A stretch of 63,819 nt of DNA, the filler included, from Rozella allomycis CSF55 (lineage: Eukaryota), in NCBI GenBank assembly GCA_000442015.1. It is 7 parts of 7 records of this genome, joined end to end, with 100 filler letters (N's around TTAATTAATTAA, not from the genome) between each part and the next. Parts side by side here need not be neighbours in the genome. Positions count along the whole stretch, not along the records: positions 23,688 to 34,874 come from KE561072.1; 6 more parts are not named here. One strand, 5' to 3'. The translations under genes were made by a program, and so were the position numbers. Every line of letters begins with the position of its first letter. The stretch's first letter is position 1. This document shows positions 23,525-62,238 of this stretch, piece after piece. The notes under the pieces were generated by a model. The model was not told the DNA's origin, searched no databases, and was given only the letters and a program-made list of their open reading frames with translations.

Positions 23525-23587
23525 ATGGGTATCGAATTTAGTAATGCAAGAAGAAGTCGCCGCACTCGTTATTGACAATGGTTCTGG
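23525..23587 (+). CDS. ACT1: Actin, 5' fragment cut by gap
   Basis: EEVAALVIDNGSG. Start is either ATG 23544 or ATG 23525 followed by a short intron. TATAAATA upstream at ~23502. Confidence 0.85.
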
Positions 23588-23687
23588 NNNNNNNNNNNNN
23601 NNNNNNNNNNNNNNNNNNNNNNNNNNNNNNNTTAATTAATTAANNNNNNNNNNNNNNNNNNNNNNNNNNNNNNNNNNNNNNNNNNNN
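23588..23687. other. Artificial scaffold linker N-TTAATTAATTAA-N (also at 34919, 52789, 55387, 59852, 62183)
   Basis: Identical 12-mer carrying stops in all six frames, embedded in N runs six times. Confidence 0.97.
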
Positions 23688-24919
23688 ATATATATATATA
23701 TTCTATATATATATATTTATTTATACTCCCCCTCATTTCTATTTTCTCCCCCTCAAAGATAGATTTATATACATTTATATACTTATTAATTACTATACAT
23801 CTTTATATATTTAATTTAATACACTTATATACCCCCCTATATATCTATTTATTAATACTATACATACTTTAATTATATACATTTATACATTTATTTATTT
23901 ATATATCTATTAATATATACTCTATACACTTAATTAATTATTTTATATATCTATATTTATATATATTACCTATAACCTAATACATTAATATATTTATCTA
24001 TATAATTATCTATATATCTATTTCTATTTATTTATTATTACTTAAATAATAAATTTATATATCTTTATCTATTATCTATTATCTATATTTATATCCTACC
24101 TAAAAAATCTATATATCTATTCTATTTAAAATTATATAATTTTATACTTAAGACTTAATACATAAATATACTTATAATTATATATTCTTTATTAATACTT
24201 TTATGACTATTTTTATTTATTAGATACTATATATATATTAAAAACTTATTTACTCTATACTTATATATTTATATATATATATATTATTTAATCTTTCTAT
24301 ATATATATTATAATTATATATATTAACTTATTTAATTTATTATTCTATTACTAACTTATTATCCCTACAAAAAACTACATATATTTAATTATTAAATATC
24401 AATTATAAATAATTCTTTTATAAATTATTCATTTATATATTATCATTATAATATATATATCCTATACTATTTATATATTTAATTATATACTTTATTCAAT
24501 ACTTAAAACTAAATACATTTATATATATATATTTATTTATATACTTATATTATTATTTATTTATTATTATACACCTTATATTATTAATTTATATATTTAA
24601 ATACTTATATTATACCTATATTTATATATTTATATATTATTATATTATTATATTATTATATTACTCTATTATTATATTATTATATTATTATATTATATCT
24701 ATATCTATTACATTATATATTAATTATACATTATACCCTATACCTAAATCTATTTATATATATATATATTATTATATTAATCTATTATTATATATCCTAT
24801 ATATATCTTTATATATATCTTTATTAATATATTCCTATTAATATATTAATTATAAACTTATCTTTTTATATATTATATTATTAACTTACAGACTTAAAAA
24901 CTATATATTATTTACTATA

Positions 24920-24987
24920 GAGGTTATCTAGGTAGAATTATAGATTCATTATCTATTTATTGATAGGTTCAATTCCTATATACCTCA
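24920..24987 (+). tRNA. trnM: mt tRNA-Met (CAT) with reduced D arm
   Basis: Acceptor GAGGT/ACCTC, anticodon arm ATAGA-TTCATTA-TCTAT, T arm ATAGG-TTCAATT-CCTAT. Confidence 0.85.
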
Positions 24988-25000
24988 CAATATATTTATA

Positions 25001-25723
25001 ATGTTATATATTTATTATTTTAACTTATTAGAAATTAGTATATATCCAATTATATGTTGTATTATACTATATATTATATTATTTTCATTTATTATAAATA
25101 TAGAGTATTATATTAAGATTTATATATTCATTATGGAATTTATTATTATATTTATTATAATATATTTATGATTATTAGATATAGACATTGAAATAGAGAA
25201 TACATTTATTTATTGGAAAGATTATATTTTATATGGATTTATTTGATACATAGTAAGTGAATTAATTATATTTCTTACAATATTCATTAGTTATTTATAT
25301 TATTTATTTAATTCATCAATATTTACATTTAATAATTATTCTATTTACTTAACCTATTCTAAAATAGGTTTATCTATATTAAATTTATTTATTATTATCC
25401 TAGGAGGATCATTTATGACTATTAATTATTATAGTGATATTATTAACAATATAGAAGAATTATCTATAGATTCACAAATATTATTATTATTTAGTTACAT
25501 TCAATATATAGAATATTATATATCATTATTATCAATTACAGATAGTATATATGGGAGTATATTTTATTGTATTACAGGGTTACATGGTATTCATATGTTT
25601 ATTAATAATTATATTATTATATATTCAAAATCAGAAATAATTTTAATTAATAATAACTTACTTTATATTAATATTCATTTTTTAGACATTATTTTTATTA
25701 TCATTTATTTAATTATTTACTAA
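25001..25723 (+). CDS. cox3: Cytochrome c oxidase subunit 3
   Basis: Open from ATG 25001 when TGA=Trp (YLWLLDIDIE; GFIWYIVSE). SITDSIYGSIFYCITGLHGIHM and HFLDII. Stop overlaps the cob ATG (TAATG). Confidence 0.9.
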
Positions 25724-26874
25724 TGTATAGATTATTTAAGAAAGATAGTTTATTTATTATATTTAATAAATATTTATATGACTCACTTATAAATTATAAC
25801 ATTACATATATATTTAACATAGGAAGTTTATTAGGTTTTAGTATTTTAATTCAAATAGTTACAGGTATATTATTATCATTATATTATAATTCTATATTAA
25901 TCAATAGTTATGATAGTATATATTATATTATGTTAGAAATAAGAAATGGATCATTAATTAGATTTATTCATATTATAGGAGTTTCATTAATATTTATATT
26001 ATTATATTTACACATTTATAAATCATTATACTATAATTCATATATTTATCCTAAATCTAATACCTATTATATAGGTATATTTATATTTATAATTATTATT
26101 ATTATATCCTTTTTAGGATATTCATTAGTAGGTGGACAACAAAGTTATTGAGGGATTGTAGTTATATGTAATATTTTATCTATTATTCCTTACATTAAAG
26201 AATGATTTACATATTATATATGAGGTAATTATTATATTAGTAATGACACAATTAATAGATTATTTAGTTTTCATTATTTACTAGGACTTATTATACTAAT
26301 TTTTATAATTATTCATTTAATATATTTACATACAAATGGAGGTAATAGTATATTAGGTTTAAATAATAATTCATCAATGATTAATTTTAATATATATTAT
26401 ACAATTAAAGACTTATATTCATTATTTATATATATATTTATTCTTCTATATATATCATTTTATATACCCTACAATTACATAGATAAAGATAATAATAATA
26501 TTTATAATTCAATAATAACACCTATTTCTATAGTACCACATTGATATTTATTATATTTTTATTGTATATTAAGATGTTTTTATAATAAACATATAGGAGT
26601 TATAATTATGTTTAGTTCTATTTTAATATTATTTATATTACCTTTTACAAATATATCTTTTATTAAATCAAATAAATTTAAATTATTTAATATATACTTT
26701 CTAAATTCTATTATTTATATTTATTCAATACTAATTTATATAGGTAGTTGTCATATTAATAAATATTATATTATATTAAGTAAAATCTTAATTTTATATT
26801 ATTTTCTATATTTTACAATATTATTATTCTTATTAAATCTATTAAACAATATCTTATATTATTATTCTAATTAA
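25723..26874 (+). CDS. cob: Apocytochrome b
   Basis: NIGSLLG, RFIH..YLH, FLGYSL..QSYW(TGA)G, RLFSFHY..IHLIYLH. All four heme His present; continuous frame with TGA=Trp. Confidence 0.96.
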
Positions 26875-27349
26875 ACTTATATATTCCTAACTATATTTAT
26901 AAATATCTAAATCTTTTATATTACATTATTATTAATATCTATACTTATATTTAAATCTCTTTATTAATAATTATTATATTCAAATTTAATTTTATCTATA
27001 TGTTATGACACTAATTATACTAATTTAATTAAGTCTCTATAAATATTATTCTTACTTAACATATAAATATCTAAATATATTTTAATTAGACTTATTAAAC
27101 AATATATATCTTCTAAATCTTGTTAATATATACACATATAAACTAATATAATTCTAACTATCTGAATATTTGATAATACATACATATATTAATAAATTAA
27201 ATTATAACTGACTATCTTTATATATATATTTATATATATATATTATTAATACATATTAGACTATAATAATATAGTAGACAGAGTTGATATTTAATAAAAT
27301 TAATTCACCTATATCAACATTAATTTTATTAAAATGTCTACTATATGCA

Positions 27350-28395
27350 CTCAATGAATCTATTATTTTGGTTATATACTTTATTCTTACTTTATCTATA
27401 AAATTTACATTAAGTTAAAATTTATGCATTATACATTATTTATTCATACTAGAATATTTATTCAATCTAAATATTAATATATATCTATATTAATTAATTA
27501 ATTAAATTCTATATTTAATTATATATTAAAAACTTATTAGACTCATATTAAATATATCAAATTAAAAGTTATCTTTATTAGATTATGTAGAATAGAAATT
27601 TATACAATATTATATATATAATGATATATTAATGTATATTATCTTAAGATATAAATTATTATACTTTTTTATAAACTAATTAATTAATGTTCCAGAATAT
27701 TCGGTTAAACATAAAAGTTTTAGTATAAATTATTATTAAAGGACTTACTTAGTTAATATAAATTATTAAATGTTAATAATTAAGTATATATAAAATATTA
27801 TTATTAGTTAAATAATAAATAAATATAAAATATTATTATAAATAAAGAAATATACAGAATATTATTAGTATTAAATTTAATTAAGCATTATTTTATAAAT
27901 TGGATTAGAGACCCAAGTAATAATAGCAGTTAATTATAATAAATTTATTTATAAATATGAAAATAGAAATATTATTCCTAGAGAATAAAATAGCAATATT
28001 TAAAATTAATAATGTTAGATAGTATATAATTAAGAATTTATGACTTATCATTTTTAATATGAAGATACACATATAAATTATACATATAATAAGATATATT
28101 GCATGATTATTTTTAGATTATTATTTATTATTATATATTCATTAGAATATATATATTATATATTATTAAAATAAATAATATGATTTATTAAATATGGAAA
28201 CAGATAAGACTAATTATTTCTACATATATATATATGTATTATTAATAGAAATAAAAAGTAAATTATTATAATAAATTATAGAAATTAGAATAATTGAATA
28301 TTAAATTTATATATACTTACAGCCCATCAATAGAGTATATTTATATATCTATAAGTTGTAACAAGGTATTAGTTCAAGAATGAGTTAATAAATAA
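27350..28395 (+). rRNA. rns: Mitochondrial small-subunit rRNA (ends approximate)
   Basis: Degenerate universal motifs in order: TGTTCCAGAATATTCGGTTAAAC (530 loop), GGATTAGAGACCC, TTGCATGATT, TACTTACAGCCCATCA, AAGTTGTAACAAGGTA. Confidence 0.85.
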
Positions 28396-28399
28396 ATAA

Positions 28400-30250
28400 A
28401 TTAATGAATTGAATATTATATTAATAAATAAATTATAGACATTATATATTATAGAAAAAAGAAATATTTAAATTAGAAGTATCTTTATAATTAATTAGAT
28501 TAATTATAATTAAATAAAAAATATATTTTAGTAAATAAATAAATAATTATATTAAGTATTAAATAAAGAATTAATATATTAGAATAAAAATTAAATTATA
28601 AATTATATTATATTTATATGTCACTAATAAAGAAAAAGTACTGAAAAGGAAAATTAATTATATTTATATATAAATTAAGATATTTATTATTATATTGTAT
28701 TATTTAAGTATTGTTATTATATATAAAATTATATTACTATTGTATAAGTATTTAAGTAGAGAAATATATATATAGAATTAACCATTATTAATATTTATAT
28801 TTAAACTAGAACATATAAGAAATTAAATAAAATTTATTTTTAAATTTAGAATATAAGAAATTAATGTTGCATTATTATTTTATAATTTTATTTAAGTATA
28901 GAAATTATTATCGATTATATAACTATTTAGTTAAATGAGAAATATATATTAGTATAGTCATTATTTTAGAATTATATTATATAATTATTAATTAGTATTA
29001 AAATAGAAATAATGAAATAGATTTAATTATAGTGTGTATATAAATCTAAATATATAAATATAAAAATTAAATTAAATATAAATAAATATATATAAGTATT
29101 ATAACTATTATTATTAATTAATTAAAATTAATATTCTTTCTACATATCAAACCTTATTTATTAAAATAGAATTTATTAATTCTTATCAAATATATAATTA
29201 ACCTTATTATTATATATATATATAAATTTTTATTGTTATCATTTATAATTATTTAAATTAAAATAATTATATATATCTTATATTGAGTAATCAAACCTAA
29301 TTAAATCCTAATTAAAATATATCTATCTACATCTATATTAACTTCAAGTTAAATTATATTTATTAATGGAAAAATAAATATTATAAATAATTATATTTAA
29401 GGAACTAGACAATAAATATATTAATATATTTGTATATTAATAAATAAAACTATATATATCAACTGTTTATCAAATACATAAGATATAGCTCTATTAATTG
29501 TATTATATATGATTTCTTCTCAATAATATTATTATTAATATTAAATAGAAAGTTTAACTATAAGACTTATTAAAGTATAAATATAAATTAATTGTTTATA
29601 AATAGAATGAAAAAATGAATATACTAATGTCTCAAATATAAATTATATGAAATAAATAAATTTGTGAATATTCAAATATTATAAAAAAGAAGTAGAGTCC
29701 CTATGAAGTTTTACTATTAATATATATATCATTTAATAAATTAATATTATAAGTTAGTTTAAGTTGGAAACTATTATATAATAAGAAAATATATAATATA
29801 AATAGATTATTAAATAAATTAATAAATAAATAATAATTATACTAATAGAGAAATATTTATAATTAGTTATATATATGTATTATATAAAGATCTACATTAT
29901 TATTAATATGTACATAAAAAATATAAATTACTCTAGGGATAACATAATAATATTTGTATTAAATAAATAAATATAAATGTTTATTAATCCGTTGTTGGCT
30001 TACATTAATAATTATATATAGAAATATAATTATATAGATTGTTCATCTTATAAATCATGTTCATTAGCTGAGTTAATTCCATTGTAAAATAGGAAGGATA
30101 CTATCTTTTTATTAATTTAAATTATATATTTTTAATATAGTATGAAAAGAATTATTATTATATACCTCTATTTATTAAATTAAATAATTATTATATGTAT
30201 AAATAAATAAATAAATAATGAATATATATAAATTATATATTTTTATATAA
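28400..30250 (+). rRNA. rnl: Mitochondrial large-subunit rRNA (ends approximate)
   Basis: AAGTACTGAAAAGGAAA, AAGGAACTAGACAA, ACTGTTTATCAAATACATA, TTACTCTAGGGATAACA and TAGCTGAGTT (peptidyl-transferase region); sarcin-ricin loop TAGTATGAAAAGAA. Confidence 0.85.
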
Positions 30251-30331
30251 TTTAATTTCTATTATTAGTAAGAATAACTAATTATCTCCTTTATTATTTT
30301 ATTAATCTCTAATTATAATATTTATAACATT

Positions 30332-30416
30332 AAGATAGTTACATAGGGTAATGTATATTGTTTGTAAAACAATTATTAATTTAATCTTAATAGCAGTTCA
30401 ACTCTGCACTATCTCA
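30332..30416 (+). tRNA. trnY: mt tRNA-Tyr (GTA), long variable arm
   Basis: Acceptor AAGATAG/CTATCTC (A1:C72 mismatch), D arm ACAT/ATGT, anticodon arm ATTGT-TTGTAAA-ACAAT, T arm GCAG-TTCAACT-CTGC. Confidence 0.85.
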
Positions 30417-31100
30417 TTAATATTTATACTTAAATCTCTAACATTCTATATATATGAAATTCTGATAATCAATACATAAATTTATCTACACATATATGAA
30501 TATTTATATCTTATATCTAACTATATATCTAATTTTATATCTTAACATACTAAATAAATTTATTTAAATCTAACTTTAAACTTTTATAACTATATCTAAC
30601 TACCTAAAATAAATAAATCTATAACAATATCATATTTAAATCTAACTTTATACTTTTATTATTAATAAATCTCTAACAATAACTTATTTAAATTTAACTA
30701 TTAAATTATATAACATTCTATATAAGTGAGATTCTGATAAGCTATACATAAATTAATAATTCTATATATATATTAATATTAATATTTCTATTAGACTAAA
30801 TTAAATTATAATTATTACTAAATAATTATTACTATATAAATATATTACATTCCAATTAGACTAGGTTGATATTAATAAAATTAATTCACCATATCAACAT
30901 TAATTTTATTAAATTGTATCTTTAAGCAATCATCTTATCTATTATTATATTTATTTTTATAAAATTTTATTAAAATTTGATTCCCTATAGTATTTTTATG
31001 ATCTACCTATATAGCATTTTCTATATAAAAATATATTTTAATGTACTATCCCCTTTTAAAAAATTAATTTTTTTATAATTTTTTATAATTTTAATAATTG

Positions 31101-32010
31101 TTATATATTAATCATACCTGGATTTGGTATTATAAGTGAAATTATATCATATTTAACATCTTCAAGAATATTTGGTAATTTAGGAATGGTTTATTCTATT
31201 ATATCTATCTCTATATTAGGATTTATCGTTATGTATCATCATATGTTCTCTATAGGTTTAGATATTGATTCAAAAGTATTTTATAATAGCTCTACAATTA
31301 TAATTGGTTTACCTACAGGAATAAAAATATATTCATGGATTACATCATTATATTATAAAGAAACTTATTCTCAAGAGAATTGTATAGAATATTTAATTTA
31401 TATATATTATTTTATATCATTATTTATTATGGGAGGTGTTACAGGAATAATATTATCAAGTTCAATAATAGATTTATCATTACATGATACATACTTTGTA
31501 GTAGGTCATTTTCATATGGTATTAAGTATAGGAGTAGTTATGTGTGTTTTATTAGGTATATATTATTATTTAGAATATATATTAGGTATATGAATTATAT
31601 ATGAAGAAATAATTATTAATAAAGAAGTTATAGAATATATAAATTTATACATATGATATATTCATTCAATATTATTATTTATAGGAGTCAATATTACATT
31701 TATTATTATGCATATTATTGGATTAAATGGTTTACCTAGAAGATATAGTGACACTAATATTAATTTTAATTATTATAATACATACATTACATTAGGATCT
31801 ATTATATCATAAATATCTTTAATATTATATTTTATAATATTAATTAATAAATTATCAAAATGTCTAAATAAAAATAATTATTATTTTATAGATAGATTAT
31901 ACATAAATAGATATATCTTTTATTATATCAATATAAATAGATTTAATTCATTACATTATTTACATAATTCTTTTAATTATCATCATACATTAGAAATACC
32001 TATTATTTAA
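31101..32010 (+). CDS. cox1: Cytochrome c oxidase subunit 1, 3' exon (contains in-frame TAA at 31810-31812)
   Basis: (V)YILIIPGFGIIS, HHMF, PTGIK, GGVTG, HDTYFVVGHFH, GLPRRYSD. Homology starts abruptly at G|T-TAT and continues past the internal TAA to HHTLEIPII*. Confidence 0.92.
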
Positions 32011-32031
32011 TTAACTTATCTTTATATATAT

Positions 32032-32253
32032 ATGGAAAACATAGGTAAATATATTGGATCAGGTTTATGTAGTATAGGATTAGGAGGATCAGCTATAGGA
32101 GGAGGAATAGTATTAGGATGTGTAGTTTATTCAATAGGTAGACAACCATCATTAGAAAATAAATTATTTAGTACAGGGATGATATATTTTGCATTAATAG
32201 AGAGTATGGGATTATTTTCATTAATTATATCTATTATTATATTATATGGTTAA
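32032..32253 (+). CDS. atp9: ATP synthase subunit c (9)
   Basis: KYIGSGL..IGLGGSAIGGG..RQPSL..FALIES with the conserved proton-binding Glu. Confidence 0.95.
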   Translation: MENIGKYIGSGLCSIGLGGSAIGGGIVLGCVVYSIGRQPSLENKLFSTGMIYFALIESMGLFSLIISIIILYG

Positions 32254-32323
32254 TCAGATAATATAAATTTTATTATATTAAGTTGCAAACTTAAAAATAT
32301 TAGTTAAAGTCTAATTCTGTTCT
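32252..32323 (+). tRNA. trnC: mt tRNA-Cys (GCA)
   Basis: Anticodon arm TTAAG-TTGCAAA-CTTAA, T arm ATTAG-TTAAAGT-CTAAT, acceptor AATCAGA/TCTGTTC, U73 discriminator. Overlaps the atp9 stop by 2 nt. Confidence 0.8.
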
Positions 32324-32326
32324 AAT

Positions 32327-32399
32327 ATATATATAGTTATAATAACAAAAACATTTTATTCCAAATAAAAAATTATTGGTTAGAATCCAATTATAGAGA
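32327..32399 (+). tRNA. trnW: mt tRNA-Trp (CCA)
   Basis: Anticodon arm TTTTA-TTCCAAA-TAAAA, T arm ATTGG-TTAGAAT-CCAAT, acceptor ATATATA/TATAGAG. Confidence 0.8.
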
Positions 32400-32415
32400 T
32401 ATATTAATTATTTTA

Positions 32416-33141
32416 ATGATTTTATATAATGCAATTAATGAATTTCAAATAGATTATATTATTACATTATTAATAGATGACAAGGAATTATATTATTCAA
32501 TATTTAATATTTATATATTATTTATTATATTATTTATTTTATTATTATTTATTATATATAGAAACAAATATGATTATTATTATTATATTAATTATTATTA
32601 TTATTATAAAGATTTTATTATTATAAATTTAATTAGTTATCAATATATATATAATTATTTAATTAAAGATAACTTATATTATATACTTATTAATTATTAT
32701 TATTATATTATAGGAAATATATTAGGTATTATAAATGATTCATTATTAATTACAAATCAACTTAAAATTAATATTTTTATTAGTATTATTTATATTTTAT
32801 ATATTACAATTAATTCATTTATTAAATATGACATATTCTTTATATTTTTATTAAAAAATAATATTTTTATATCTTTATATTTATATCTTATAGAAATTAT
32901 ATCTCATATATCTAGAATTATATCATTAAGTTTTAGAATATCTTATAACATATTATGTGGACATTTATTAATTAAAATTATTATATCAATAATTTTATTA
33001 TTTATATATTTAAATATATCAATTTATATATTTATTTATATTTTTATTATATTAATTTATTCATTAGAATTATATATCAATTATTTACAATGTTATATTT
33101 ATATTACACTCTTACATATATATACAAATGAATTATTATAG
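32416..33141 (+). CDS. atp6: ATP synthase subunit a (6), highly divergent
   Basis: IEIISHISRIISLSFRISYNILCGHLL (essential Arg) and LELYINYLQCYIY. Confidence 0.9.
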   Translation: MILYNAINEFQIDYIITLLIDDKELYYSIFNIYILFIILFILLLFIIYRNKYDYYYYINYYYYYKDFIIINLISYQYIYNYLIKDNLYYILINYYYYIIGNILGIINDSLLITNQLKINIFISIIYILYITINSFIKYDIFFIFLLKNNIFISLYLYLIEIISHISRIISLSFRISYNILCGHLLIKIIISIILLFIYLNISIYIFIYIFIILIYSLELYINYLQCYIYITLLHIYTNELL

Positions 33142-33172
33142 ATTTATATTTATTTTACAGAGAAATAAATTT

Positions 33173-33865
33173 ATGTATATGGATTGACCTATATTTATAA
33201 ATTATAGTTTTAACGAAGAAGGTGTATTTAATTATATAGATAGAATTGAATTGTATGATGTTTATCTCTATTATGGAATATTAATCATTATATCCATATA
33301 TTTTATATTATATATTATACTTATATTTAAAAATAACTTTATTAAATTATCTCAATATGAAAAAATAGAAATTATTTATATATTTATTCCAACTTTACTA
33401 ATTATTATTATATTTTTACCTTCTATTAATTTATTATATTCAAATGATAAACTTATGTATATTAATACTTATATTATGATTATAGGCTATCAATGATATT
33501 GAAATTATAATATATTAGAATATGGTTATATAGAAATATATATTACAACTTATAACAATAATGATTTATATAATATATTAGAAAATTATATAGAACTAGA
33601 TAATATTATTATTTTACCTATTATTTATAAATGTTGTTATTTATTTACAAGTGGAGATGTTATTCATTCATATGGAATATTAAGTTTAGGTATTAAAATG
33701 GATTGTATACCAGGTATTATAAATATTAATTATATTATTGTATTAAAAAAAGGTATATATGTTGGTTATTGTAGTGAATTATGTGGATCTTATCATAACA
33801 ATATGAATATTTTATTAAATTATACTTATTACTCTTGATACATTAAATATTTAAATTATTATTAA
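33173..33865 (+). CDS. cox2: Cytochrome c oxidase subunit 2
   Basis: GYQWYW (both TGA), DVIHS, GIKMDCIPG, CuA motif CSELCGSYHNNM; open frame with TGA=Trp. Confidence 0.95.
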
Positions 33866-34662
33866 AAATAAATAATGATAGGACTTAATATATTTATTAT
33901 TAATTGATCTCTTATTATATTATATTACTTATTAATACATATTTACTTATATTTCTATCTCTATTATATTAATATTCAATTAACTTTATAATTTTATTTA
34001 TTACTTATAAAATTATATTATATCTAACTCTATTTATTAATTTATATCAACTTATATTTCTATTTATTAATATATCAATATACAATTTAATTTATAATCT
34101 TATTAATTTATTATTTTATATATAACTTATAAAATAATACTATACAACACTAACTATTTATTATTATCTAACCTAATTAATTTATATCTAACCTAAAAAA
34201 GATATATAGTCCATCATAACCTCTCAATTTATATAATTATATCTTACTTTTAAATTTATAATTTTATATATTATCTTATAAAATTATATTATACATCCTT
34301 AATAACTTATTTATATCTAACATTAATTATTAATTTATATATATACATCTTAAAAACAATATTAACAATGATTAACTTAAATTTATCCTAAGAAAGATAT
34401 ATATGAATTTATTATTTTATATAATTATATCTACCTCTAAAAATGATACTACCGATCATCCCCTATTGAAATTAATTATTATCCTGATTTATATTTATAT
34501 ACTAATAAAAATAACACTACCGATCATCCTCTATAGATCTATTAAAAATATCGTTACCCATCATCCCTTATTGATTATATAAATACTCGTTATAGAGTAT
34601 TTATTTATTATTAAAAATATATATACTGTTATCATTCACTATCATTTAATATATTTATATAT

Positions 34663-34874
34663 ATGACTAGAATATATAGACAATTATGTAGTACTAATGC
34701 AATAGACATTGGAATTATGTATAGTTATTTAGGAATTATTAGTGGTATTATTGGTACATCTTATTCATTTATTATTAGATTAGAATTGATTAATTCAGGT
34801 ATTAAATTAAATTATATTAATATATATGGATCTATTTATAATAATATTATTACAAATCATGGTCTTATTATGTT
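34663..34874 (+). CDS. cox1: Cytochrome c oxidase subunit 1, 5' exon (runs into gap)
   Basis: STNAIDIG.MY, GIIGTSYSFIIRLEL, YNNIITNHGLIM (heme a His). Confidence 0.93.
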
Positions 34875-34993
34875 NNNNNNNNNNNNNNNNNNNNNNNNNN
34901 NNNNNNNNNNNNNNNNNNTTAATTAATTAANNNNNNNNNNNNNNNNNNNNNNNNNNNNNNNNNNNNNNNNNNNNGTCACCCAGCCCCGCGGCA

Positions 34994-44945: not shown

Positions 44946-45213
44946 NNNNNNNNNNNNNNNNNNNNNNNNNNNNNNNNNNNNNNNNNNNNNNNNNNNNNNN
45001 NNNNNNNNNNNNNNNNNNNNNNNNNNNNNNNNNNNNNNNNNNNNNNNNNNNNNNNNNNNNNNNNNNNNNNNNNNNNNNNNNNNNNNNNNNNNNNNNNNNN
45101 NNNNNNNNNNNNNNNNNNNNNNNNNNNNNNNNNNNNCTATTTTTAGAAGGGATGCCCCTATATAACCGAATCTAATCTCCAGTGGCTAAGGTCATTACCT
45201 CAACTTGAACCCA

Positions 45214-52526: not shown

Positions 52527-52844
52527 ACAAGGGGGGCGTGGCGAAGCTCACGCGGATTTGCTCATTGCTGGAGAAATAAAAATAGATTTGATTAGTGGGA
52601 AAGGTTAGATGTATGATATTTATTTTTTTGAGATGGGATGGAGTGATGTTGGTGACTAGATTGCTAGGTGTCAACTGCCTTTGGTGACAGTATAATATAA
52701 CAAAGTTAAGGAAATACATAAATATAATGACTAATGGATATTACNNNNNNNNNNNNNNNNNNNNNNNNNNNNNNNNNNNNNNNNNNNNTTAATTAATTAA
52801 NNNNNNNNNNNNNNNNNNNNNNNNNNNNNNNNNNNNNNNNNNNN

Positions 52845-55342: not shown

Positions 55343-55442
55343 NNNNNNNNNNNNNNNNNNNNNNNNNNNNNNNNNNNNNNNNNNNNTTAATTAATTAANN
55401 NNNNNNNNNNNNNNNNNNNNNNNNNNNNNNNNNNNNNNNNNN

Positions 55443-59770: not shown

Positions 59771-59907
59771 TGTCGCGGACGATCTTGGATTAATATCGGT
59801 ACAATTTNNNNNNNNNNNNNNNNNNNNNNNNNNNNNNNNNNNNNNNNNNNNTTAATTAATTAANNNNNNNNNNNNNNNNNNNNNNNNNNNNNNNNNNNNN
59901 NNNNNNN

Positions 59908-62138: not shown

Positions 62139-62238
62139 NNNNNNNNNNNNNNNNNNNNNNNNNNNNNNNNNNNNNNNNNNNNTTAATTAATTAANNNNNN
62201 NNNNNNNNNNNNNNNNNNNNNNNNNNNNNNNNNNNNNN

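What the first reader, a model, noticed from the sequence alone, without database searches (positions are those of the whole stretch)
31040..31140. cox1 is split at the canonical position-731 group I intron site with other genes between the halves: trans-splicing
Seen: the 3' half starts ...AATAATTG|T TAT ATA TTA ATC ATA CCT GGA, i.e. the last base of the Val codon of HPEV|YIL, preceded by G. Upstream in frame there is a stop (31057) and no ATG. The 5' half begins at 34663, downstream; even on a circle trnM, cox3, cob, rns, rnl and trnY lie between the halves. Known: group I introns end in G and follow an exon U; this HPEV site (yeast aI4) is a common insertion site and carries trans-spliced group I introns in a few unrelated lineages. 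The CuB His and its cross-linked Tyr lie on opposite sides. Inference: trans-splicing (or a giant gene-containing intron). I cannot find a convincing P7/S core in the 200 nt upstream, so the ribozyme may be extremely degenerate, multipartite or protein-dependent. The split may already be annotated in the reference mtDNA.
Basis: partly seen in the sequence, partly recalled or inferred. Interest (0 to 1): 0.8.

Follow-up and report, generated by a model that had tools for sequence, protein, structure and literature searches.

The report
Known split cox1 in Rozella mtDNA
The cox1 gene of the Rozella allomycis mitochondrial genome really is in two pieces, broken at a classic group I intron site, but this split is already annotated in the reference genome, so it is a confirmed known oddity and not a discovery.

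Summary
The window is several contigs joined by N44-TTAATTAATTAA-N44 linkers. Positions 23688-34874 are one 11,187-nt, ~13% GC mitochondrial contig of Rozella allomycis: its COX1 pieces are identical to UniRef R9R6P3 apart from one TAA. COX1 homology starts at Y (31102). T31101 completes a split Val codon and is preceded by G31100. TAA at 31057 closes the frame upstream. The ATG of cox1 lies downstream at 34663, and the contig end, not a scaffold gap, cuts exon 1 after 70 codons. On the same strand, trnM, cox3, cob, rns, rnl and trnY separate the pieces.

The reference mtDNA (NC_021611, 12,055 bp) already lists this intron as cox1 P731, group I, and a later paper cites James et al. 2013 for cox1 trans-splicing. 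P731 is the site where bipartite group I introns broken in loop L8 occur in Gigaspora and Trichoplax. Yeast aI4 is at P720, not P731.

Rfam finds no group I core, but it also misses this genome's rRNAs, so that negative is weak. One possibly new detail: most of the spacer before exon 2 duplicates the cob-rns spacer plus the first ~90 nt of rns, leaving about 150 nt as the candidate 3' intron piece. No RNA evidence could be obtained.

The parts
23588..23687 (.). Contig-joining linker (N44-TTAATTAATTAA-N44). Sequence to its left is an unrelated nuclear contig.
23688..34874 (+). Stand-alone Rozella allomycis mtDNA contig: 11,187 nt, ~13% GC, all genes on the + strand.
23688..24919 (+). Non-coding, almost G-free AT-rich repeat region. 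In the circle it would lie downstream of the missing exon 1 end and 5' intron piece.
   Evidence: Rfam found nothing here.
24920..24987 (+). trnM(cau), a weak call.
   Evidence: Rfam 22.6 bits, below gathering; ARAGORN -mt; anticodon read from the sequence
25001..25723 (+). cox3
   Evidence: PF00510, E 2.4e-16. Start codon chosen by eye.
25723..26874 (+). cob
   Evidence: PF00033, E 6.4e-51. Start codon chosen by eye.
27057..27375 (+). cob-rns spacer plus the first ~90 nt of rns. This is the source (or sister) copy of the duplication found upstream of cox1 exon 2.
   Evidence: The rns position is inferred from recalled SSU motifs found at 27904 and 28353.
27279..30300 (+). rns then rnl, with approximate limits. 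Not detected by Rfam.
   Evidence: short motifs; no Rfam hit
30331..30417 (+). trnY(gua)
30439..30582 (+). Repeat copy A of the pre-rns element. It is tandem to copy B.
   Evidence: family D10; score 54.5 against 30711-30862
30628..30954 (+). Repeat copy B plus a pseudo-5' end of rns. The core, 30857-30946, matches 27275-27367 at about 85% identity.
   Evidence: score 71.2; 30 shuffles, max 25.7; score 86.1; 50 shuffles, max 31.7
30947..31100 (+). Candidate 3' piece of the split intron: the only unique sequence upstream of exon 2. It ends in G31100. It contains S-like words CTATAGTAT (30985) and ATATAGCAT (31008) and a possible hairpin at 31008-31027. None of these is statistically supported.
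   Evidence: fold z = -0.91; no Rfam hit
31101..32010 (+). cox1 exon 2. T31101 is the third base of the split Val codon, followed by residues 249-550. An in-frame TAA at 31810-31812 stands where the reference protein has Leu.
32032..32253 (+). atp9
32253..32400 (+). Two tRNA genes, called trnC(gca) and trnW(cca).
   Evidence: Rfam 35 and 31.1 bits; ARAGORN -mt
32416..33141 (+). atp6
   Evidence: Start codon chosen by eye.
33128..33865 (+). cox2
   Evidence: Start uncertain.
33866..34662 (+). Spacer of about 800 nt before cox1 exon 1. It holds C-rich 37-nt repeats (34505-34592) and four ATCTAAC words.
34663..34874 (+). cox1 exon 1: the first 212 nt (70 codons plus 2 nt), cut by the contig end.
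34875..34974 (.). Contig-joining linker. Unrelated nuclear DNA follows it.

Best explanation
Positions 23688-34874 are a draft contig of the 12-kb Rozella allomycis mitochondrial genome. In that genome cox1 exists as two pieces on the same strand.

Exon 1 covers codons 1-247 plus GT of Val248. Only its first 212 nt are in the window, at 34663-34874. Exon 2 is 31101-32010. The break is the group I intron site cox1 P731, phase 2 in the Val of H(P/I)EV|Y.

A full-length mRNA must be made by RNA splicing. The most likely agent is a very A+T-rich, degenerate group I intron that has been broken into two pieces:
- a 5' piece following exon 1, outside the window;
- a short 3' piece of about 150 nt or less (30947-31100), ending in the terminal G at 31100.
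The two pieces would associate in trans, as in Gigaspora and Trichoplax at the same site.

tRNA and rRNA processing of any long precursor would separate the halves even if they were co-transcribed.

What is shown: the DNA arrangement, the exact exon 2 boundary, the terminal G, the organism, and the prior annotation.
What is inferred: the end of exon 1, the ribozyme fold, splicing itself, and trans versus cis.
For: Organism and product. The 550-aa R. allomycis COX1 (UniRef R9R6P3) matches the two pieces at 70/70 residues, and at all of residues 249-550 except one TAA. It reads straight through ...GHIEVYILIIPG....

Boundary. Homology to COX1 starts at Y31102 (Pfam profile position 215). G31100 precedes T31101, TAA is at 31057, and there is no ATG in between.

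Separation of the pieces. Exon 2 lies 2.65 kb upstream of exon 1 in the contig. Going round the circle, trnM, cox3, cob, rns, rnl and trnY lie between exon 1 and exon 2.

Prior annotation. PMC7325650 Tables 1 and 3 (passages read) list NC_021611, 12,055 nt, with one intron, cox1 P731, where P means group I. PMC8632527 (passage read) cites James et al. 2013 for cox1 trans-splicing.

Same site elsewhere. PMC3873408 Table 3 (passage read) lists trans-spliced cox1 introns at 'site 773' in Trichoplax, Gigaspora margarita and G. rosea, all broken in L8, with S. pombe intron 2 as the cis-spliced orthologue. PMC7325650 lists the second S. pombe cox1 intron as P731, so site 773 equals P731.

Size of the 3' piece. 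An L8 break predicts a short 3' piece. Only about 150 nt before exon 2 is unique, because the rest duplicates the pre-rns region.
Against: No group I core was found. At E<=10 Rfam gave 0 group I hits among the 4 matches in the whole contig, 0 among the 1 match in 30418-31130, and no matches at all in 23688-24950.

The 321 nt before exon 2 fold no better than shuffles: z = -0.91, and 16 of 100 shuffles fold at least as well.

The R- and S-like words I saw are not significant. TTAGACTA is partly explained by the repeat, and 7 of 100 shuffles reach its count.

These negatives are weak, because Rfam also returns nothing for the rns region of this genome, and the 5' intron piece is not in the window.

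No cDNA or RNA evidence for the junction was obtained. The end of exon 1 and the 5' splice site were not seen. James et al. 2013 and its supplements could not be read.
Confidence: 0.75

Rival explanations
1. Giant cis-spliced intron. The circle is transcribed as one long precursor, and exon 1 is joined to exon 2 across about 7.75 kb holding trnM, cox3, cob, rns, rnl and trnY. The intron is formally continuous.
For: All genes are on the + strand, and on a circle exon 1 precedes exon 2. The interval is about 337 nt missing from the window plus 23688-31100; this assumes the 12,055-nt reference is colinear with the 11,187-nt contig. PMC7325650 simply lists 'one intron'.
Against: Two tRNA genes and both rRNAs lie inside the interval and must be cut out of any precursor, which would sever the halves. 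This rests on general knowledge of mitochondrial tRNA punctuation and was not tested here. A duplicated copy of the pre-rns region sits directly upstream of the 3' piece, which is compatible with its own transcript start or processing site. PMC8632527 refers to separate RNA molecules.
Confidence: 0.15
2. No splicing. The two pieces are translated separately, and two polypeptides assemble into subunit I.
For: In-frame ATT and ATA codons, which table 4 allows as starts, lie between 31060 and 31101. No RNA junction has been seen here.
Against: The break falls exactly at a known group I insertion site, inside a codon, directly after a G. It separates the CuB His from its cross-linked Tyr (the role of these residues is recalled). 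A protein-level split has no reason to respect an intron phase. The depositors annotated a joined CDS.
Confidence: 0.04
3. Assembly artefact. The contig is chimeric, and cox1 is contiguous (or has an ordinary intron) in the real mtDNA.
For: The contig ends inside exon 1 and is a draft. It carries one in-frame TAA that is absent from the reference protein.
Against: The independently finished reference genome is listed with an intron at exactly this site. The protein is otherwise identical. No cox1 sequence for residues 71-248 lies upstream of exon 2; instead there is trnY and repeats.
Confidence: 0.02
4. The pieces are joined by something other than a group I intron: a group II intron in pieces, or a guide-RNA or ligase system as in diplonemids.
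For: No group I core was detectable.
Against: No group II match either. The sequence before exon 2 ends in ...TTG, not the AY typical of group II (recalled rule). The site is a classic group I site with trans-spliced precedents.
Confidence: 0.04

Closest known systems
Reference annotation of Rozella allomycis mtDNA (NC_021611; COX1 = UniRef R9R6P3; James et al. 2013)
   Same: Same organism and same gene. The protein is identical over the two pieces present, and the intron site is the same (cox1 P731).
   Different: The window holds a draft contig that lacks about 868 nt, including 531 nt of exon 1. It has TAA where the reference protein has Leu (31810-31812). I could not read the primary paper or the GenBank record, so I do not know how the authors drew the intron.
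Trans-spliced group I intron 4 of cox1 in Gigaspora margarita / G. rosea and in Trichoplax adhaerens ('site 773')
   Same: Same insertion site, linked through S. pombe intron 2 = P731. The exons are dispersed in the mtDNA. A short 3' piece is expected from an L8 break, and here about 150 nt or less is unique.
   Different: Those introns have modelled group I folds. Here no core is detectable and the 5' piece is unseen. In Rozella both pieces are on one strand of a 12-kb circle.
Cis-spliced group IB introns at cox1 P731 (S. pombe cox1 intron 2, Emericella nidulans intron 3) with a LAGLIDADG ORF in L8
   Same: Same site and same phase.
   Different: Those are continuous and carry an ORF. No LAGLIDADG remnant or ORF was seen before exon 2.
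Prasinoderma coloniale trans-spliced rnl introns
   Same: Dispersed repeats lie next to the intron breakpoints and were proposed as recombination substrates. Here a duplicated pre-rns / 5'-rns segment abuts the 3' piece.
   Different: Different gene, site and lineage.

Membership tests
Group I intron | Intron ends in G (omega-G) immediately before the 3' exon | tested here: met
   G31100 precedes T31101, the first exon base
Group I intron | 5' exon ends in U (G.U pair in P1) | not testable with these tools
   The end of exon 1 is outside the window. A U is implied by the split Val codon GU|U in the reference protein and by phase 2 of P731.
Group I intron | Conserved catalytic core (P3-P9, P7 guanosine pocket, R/S elements) | tested here: inconclusive
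   Rfam gave no group I match at E<=10, and the fold is not better than shuffles. Rfam also misses the rns of this genome, and the 5' piece is absent from the window.
Group I intron | Insertion at a site occupied by bona fide group I introns in other taxa | tested here: met
   P731 is listed for S. pombe, Conidiobolus heterosporus and Isaria cicadae, and equals site 773 with its cis and trans examples
Group I intron | Exons are ligated in RNA | not testable with these tools
   No RNA run holds the stretch, and laying reads returned nothing
Trans-spliced (bipartite) group I intron | The two exons with their intron halves are not contiguous in the DNA and other genes lie between them | tested here: met
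   Exon 2 is at 31101-32010 and exon 1 starts at 34663. Seven genes (cox3, cob, rns, rnl, trnM, trnY in one direction; atp9, 2 tRNAs, atp6, cox2 in the other) separate them.
Trans-spliced (bipartite) group I intron | Halves are on separate transcripts | not testable with these tools
   No RNA data. Indirect hints only: tRNAs lie in the interval, and a duplicated pre-rns element sits before the 3' piece.
Trans-spliced (bipartite) group I intron | Break in a peripheral loop (L8 at this site), so that the 3' piece carries P8'-P7'-P9 | tested here: inconclusive
   Unique sequence before exon 2 is only about 150 nt, which fits. No P7'/P9 assignment is statistically supported.

The most novel reading that the evidence does not exclude
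The 3' intron piece is about 150 nt or less, has no recognisable group I core, and sits directly behind a duplicated copy of the rns upstream region plus the first ~90 nt of rns. On this reading, exon 2 acquired its own transcript start or processing signal by copying the rRNA leader. The residual ribozyme is so degenerate that splicing needs a third helper RNA or dedicated proteins, as was once hypothesised for Gigaspora rosea. That would make Rozella the most reduced natural group I trans-splicing system.
Probability: 0.15. Interest if true: 0.55.

Novelty: already known. Interest (0 to 1): 0.25.

Why it matters
This is a third lineage, after Gigaspora and Trichoplax, in which the same cox1 site (P731) carries a fragmented intron. 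That supports the idea that this site, with its L8 loop, is a hot spot for cis-to-trans conversion.

It also occurs in the smallest and one of the most A+T-rich fungal mtDNAs, so the ribozyme must work with almost no G-C pairs.

The split itself is already in the reference annotation, so nothing new is established here. The exceptions are the repeat structure next to the 3' piece and a caution for the scan: this window is a chain of unrelated contigs, and apparent 'gaps' in it are linkers.

Tried and rejected
RNA and read evidence. The look-up of sequencing runs listed 14 runs, of which 8 hold the stretch or part of it. So there is no read-level check of the junction, of contig continuity or of the TAA.

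Whole genome and earlier findings. Neither is held or open for this window.

Recovering the missing ~868 nt (rest of exon 1 plus the 5' intron piece):
- An exact 25-nt pattern from the contig end found 0 matches in metagenome contigs and 0 in viral contigs.
- The search for related loci with COX1 gave 1 locus from 240 pattern matches: L001, 42% identity over residues 6-48, 30% GC. It is not a relative.
- A protein search for short proteins covering residues 1-260 gave 113 hits, the best 51% identical over the full length. None was from Rozella. P0233-P0235 were inspected and are irrelevant.

Group I detection. Rfam at E<=10 was run on the contig, on the 713 nt before exon 2 and on the contig start. 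It found nothing, and the control on rns also found nothing.

R/S-like words. TTAGACTA occurs 6 times in the window; 7 of 100 shuffles reach that count, and two copies belong to the repeat. I do not count it as evidence.

Yeast-type promoter word. ATATAAGT (recalled motif) gave 18 matches, but only 2 are on the + strand of the mt contig against 12 on the - strand. I rejected it as a general promoter signal. The 26-28-nt core of the repeat occurs only at its two tandem copies with up to 5 substitutions allowed, so it is not a genome-wide motif.

A lax blastn self-comparison aligned everything at 60-65% and was uninformative. I replaced it with composition-weighted alignment plus shuffles.

Literature. 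James et al. 2013 and Haag et al. 2014 are not held. Searches found no open paper describing the Rozella intron structure. Supplements were not consulted.

Full report
What the window is.
The window is not one molecule. Six N44-TTAATTAATTAA-N44 linkers are present (the 12-nt core was read at two of them), and they join separate contigs. Between the linkers at 23588-23687 and 34875-34974 lies an 11,187-nt block of 7-22% GC, whereas its neighbours are 30-52% GC. What follows it is unrelated nuclear DNA.

Organism and gene map.
The 3' cox1 ORF, translated with table 4, finds one 100%-identical database protein. This is the 550-aa 'Cytochrome c oxidase subunit 1, Rozella allomycis' (UniRef R9R6P3). 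The next hit is 44% identical.

Pfam confirms cox3, cob, atp9, atp6, cox2 and both cox1 pieces, all on the + strand. ARAGORN finds trnY. Rfam finds two tRNAs at 32252-32399 and a sub-threshold one at 24920-24987. ARAGORN in mitochondrial mode calls these Cys, Trp and Met, alongside obvious false positives inside genes.

rns and rnl are placed only by short SSU/LSU motifs that I recalled: a 790-loop-like word at 27904 and a 3'-end-like word at 28353, each with 4 mismatches.

The observation.
The sequence reads ...AATAATTG|T TAT ATA TTA ATC ATA CCT GGA, with G at 31100 and T at 31101. TAA at 31057-31059 closes the frame upstream, and no ATG follows before 31101.

tblastn of the reference protein against the whole window gives only two real matches:
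- residues 1-70 at 34663-34872, 70/70 identical;
- residues 249-550 at 31102-32007, identical except for TAA at 31810-31812 where the reference has Leu.
The BLAST row itself spans residues 234-550 at 304/317, because it runs into non-homologous upstream codons. All remaining rows are composition-driven matches of 54% identity or less. Residues 71-248 are absent from the window.

The Pfam COX1 profile enters at position 215 exactly at Y31102.

The reference protein reads GHIEV|YIL. So the Rozella motif is HIEV, not HPEV. The Val codon must be split GT|T, but the GT is not in the window.

Arrangement.
In the contig, exon 2 (31101-32010) lies upstream of exon 1 (34663 onward), with atp9, two tRNAs, atp6 and cox2 between them.

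If the contig is colinear with the 12,055-nt reference (size from PMC7325650 Table 1), about 868 nt are missing. Of these, 531 nt are exon 1 and about 337 nt follow it. Going round the circle from exon 1 to exon 2 then takes about 7.75 kb. That interval contains a 1.2-kb nearly G-free repeat region, trnM, cox3, cob, rns, rnl and trnY. These lengths are inference.

Is it known?
Yes.
- PMC7325650 (passages and tables read) lists R. allomycis NC_021611 with exactly one intron, cox1 P731. P denotes group I, and 731 is the site in Tolypocladium numbering (731 = 3x243+2, phase 2).
- The deposited protein is the joined product.
- PMC8632527 (passage read) cites James et al. [quoted passage not shown]
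I could not read James et al. 2013 or its supplements. How they modelled the intron therefore remains unknown to me.

The site in other lineages.
PMC3873408 Table 3 (passage read) lists trans-spliced cox1 group I introns at 'site 773' (Mesostigma numbering). They occur in Trichoplax adhaerens (intron 4), Gigaspora margarita (4) and G. rosea (4), all broken in loop L8. Cis orthologues are S. pombe intron 2 and Emericella nidulans intron 3, which carry a LAGLIDADG ORF in L8.

PMC7325650 lists the S. pombe cox1 introns as P386 and P731. Hence site 773 equals P731. The neighbouring pairs 762/773 and 720/731 are both 11 nt apart, which agrees.

The equation with yeast aI4 is not. S. cerevisiae has P720 as its fourth cox1 intron and has no P731.

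Is there a ribozyme?
Rfam at E<=10 gives no group I or group II match in the whole contig, in 30418-31130 or in 23688-24950.

The 321 nt before exon 2 fold at -35 kcal/mol against -31.8 +/- 3.5 for shuffles (z = -0.91).

I saw words resembling the recalled R (GACUA) and S (UAUAGU) elements. TTAGACTA is not significant, and two of its copies belong to a repeat (below).

As a control, Rfam also returns nothing for the 1.6 kb that must hold rns. In this 87% A+T genome a negative from Rfam therefore says little. In addition, the 5' piece, which at an L8 break would hold P1-P8, lies outside the window.

Membership in group I thus rests on the site, the phase, the terminal G and other people's classification. 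It does not rest on a fold shown here.

A detail that may be new.
Composition-weighted local alignment shows that 30628-30954 is a copy of 27057-27375. That source segment is the cob-rns spacer plus the first ~90 nt of rns.
- The score is 86.1, against 22.3 +/- 2.7 (max 31.7) for 50 mononucleotide shuffles.
- The core, 30857-30946 versus 27275-27367, is about 85% identical and scores 71.2, against a maximum of 25.7 in 30 shuffles.
- A further partial tandem copy lies at 30439-30582, scoring 54.5 against 30711-30862 (also family D10 and the alignment).

Of the 683 nt between trnY and exon 2, only about 150 nt (30947-31100) is therefore unique. That is the size expected for a 3' piece left by an L8 break.

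The duplication could have supplied a transcript start or processing signal. It could also be the footprint of the recombination that broke the intron, since dispersed repeats at breakpoints are described for Prasinoderma. Both ideas are hypotheses. The repeat core is not a genome-wide motif, and a yeast-like promoter word is not enriched on the coding strand.

Mechanism and rivals.
Most likely (0.75): RNA-level joining by a bipartite, degenerate group I intron.

A formally cis 7.75-kb intron (0.15) cannot be excluded from DNA alone, because everything is on one strand. However, tRNA and rRNA excision would sever such a precursor.

Separate translation of two polypeptides (0.04) is unlikely. 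The break sits inside a codon, at an intron site, directly after a G.

A chimeric contig (0.02) is unlikely, given the independent reference annotation at the same site.

A non-group-I joining system (0.04) has nothing positive in its favour.

What could not be done.
No run on record as RNA holds the stretch. The junction, the contig's continuity and the TAA at 31810 therefore remain unchecked against reads.

Attempts to recover the missing 868 nt or any relatives from public collections failed.

Verdict.
The feature is already annotated and cited, so novelty is 'already known' and interest is low (0.25). The residual interest lies in the unseen, possibly extremely reduced ribozyme and in the rns-leader duplication next to it.

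Noticed in passing
window 31810-31812: There is an in-frame TAA inside cox1 exon 2 where the reference protein has Leu, so a one-base difference (TAA versus TTA) is implied. It is probably a draft-assembly error or a polymorphism. It is the only difference from the reference over the 372 residues present.
   Followed up: partly
window 23588-23687, 34875-34974, 52745-52844, 55343-55442, 59808-59907, 62139-62238: Six N44-TTAATTAATTAA-N44 linkers show that the window is a chain of separate contigs. Adjacency across them means nothing. There are also many single N positions and one run of 191 N (44946-45136).
   Followed up: yes
window 32326-32400 versus 31591-31593 and 31654-31656: The only tRNA-Trp call has anticodon CCA (ARAGORN -mt), yet cox1 uses TGA for Trp at two conserved positions. 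Decoding UGA would need anticodon editing or modification, or an imported tRNA, unless the tRNA call is wrong.
   Followed up: no
window 26875-30300: Rfam at E<=10 detects neither rns nor rnl in this mtDNA. The rRNAs are so A+T-rich and reduced that only short motifs locate them.
   Followed up: partly
window 30515-30646 and 34022-34321: All 8 + strand copies of ATCTAAC in the mt contig fall in the two spacers that precede the two cox1 pieces, four in each. By my own composition estimate about one would be expected in the whole contig. A 30-nt repeat family (D16) links the same spacers. This may be a shared processing or regulatory signal, or a dispersed repeat.
   Followed up: partly
window 34376-34600: There are three copies of a C-rich ~37-nt unit (CTACCGATCATCCCCTAT-like) just upstream of the cox1 start codon. 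Similar C-rich words occur in the 150 nt before exon 2 and at the contig start (23727-23760).
   Followed up: no
window 23688-24900: This 1.2-kb non-coding stretch has almost no G on the + strand (GC skew down to -1.0) and is built from 8-nt and ~60-nt A+T-rich repeats. It is the largest non-coding region of the mtDNA.
   Followed up: no
window 23540-23587: The nuclear contig to the left ends in an ORF start reading MQEEVAALVIDNGSG, which looks like an actin N-terminus. This was read by eye and recognised from memory. The contig end cuts it.
   Followed up: no
L001 1916-2044: A 44.6-kb metagenome contig (30% GC) matches only COX1 residues 6-48 at 42% identity. It is perhaps an intron-rich or fragmented cox1 of an unrelated organism.
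   Followed up: no
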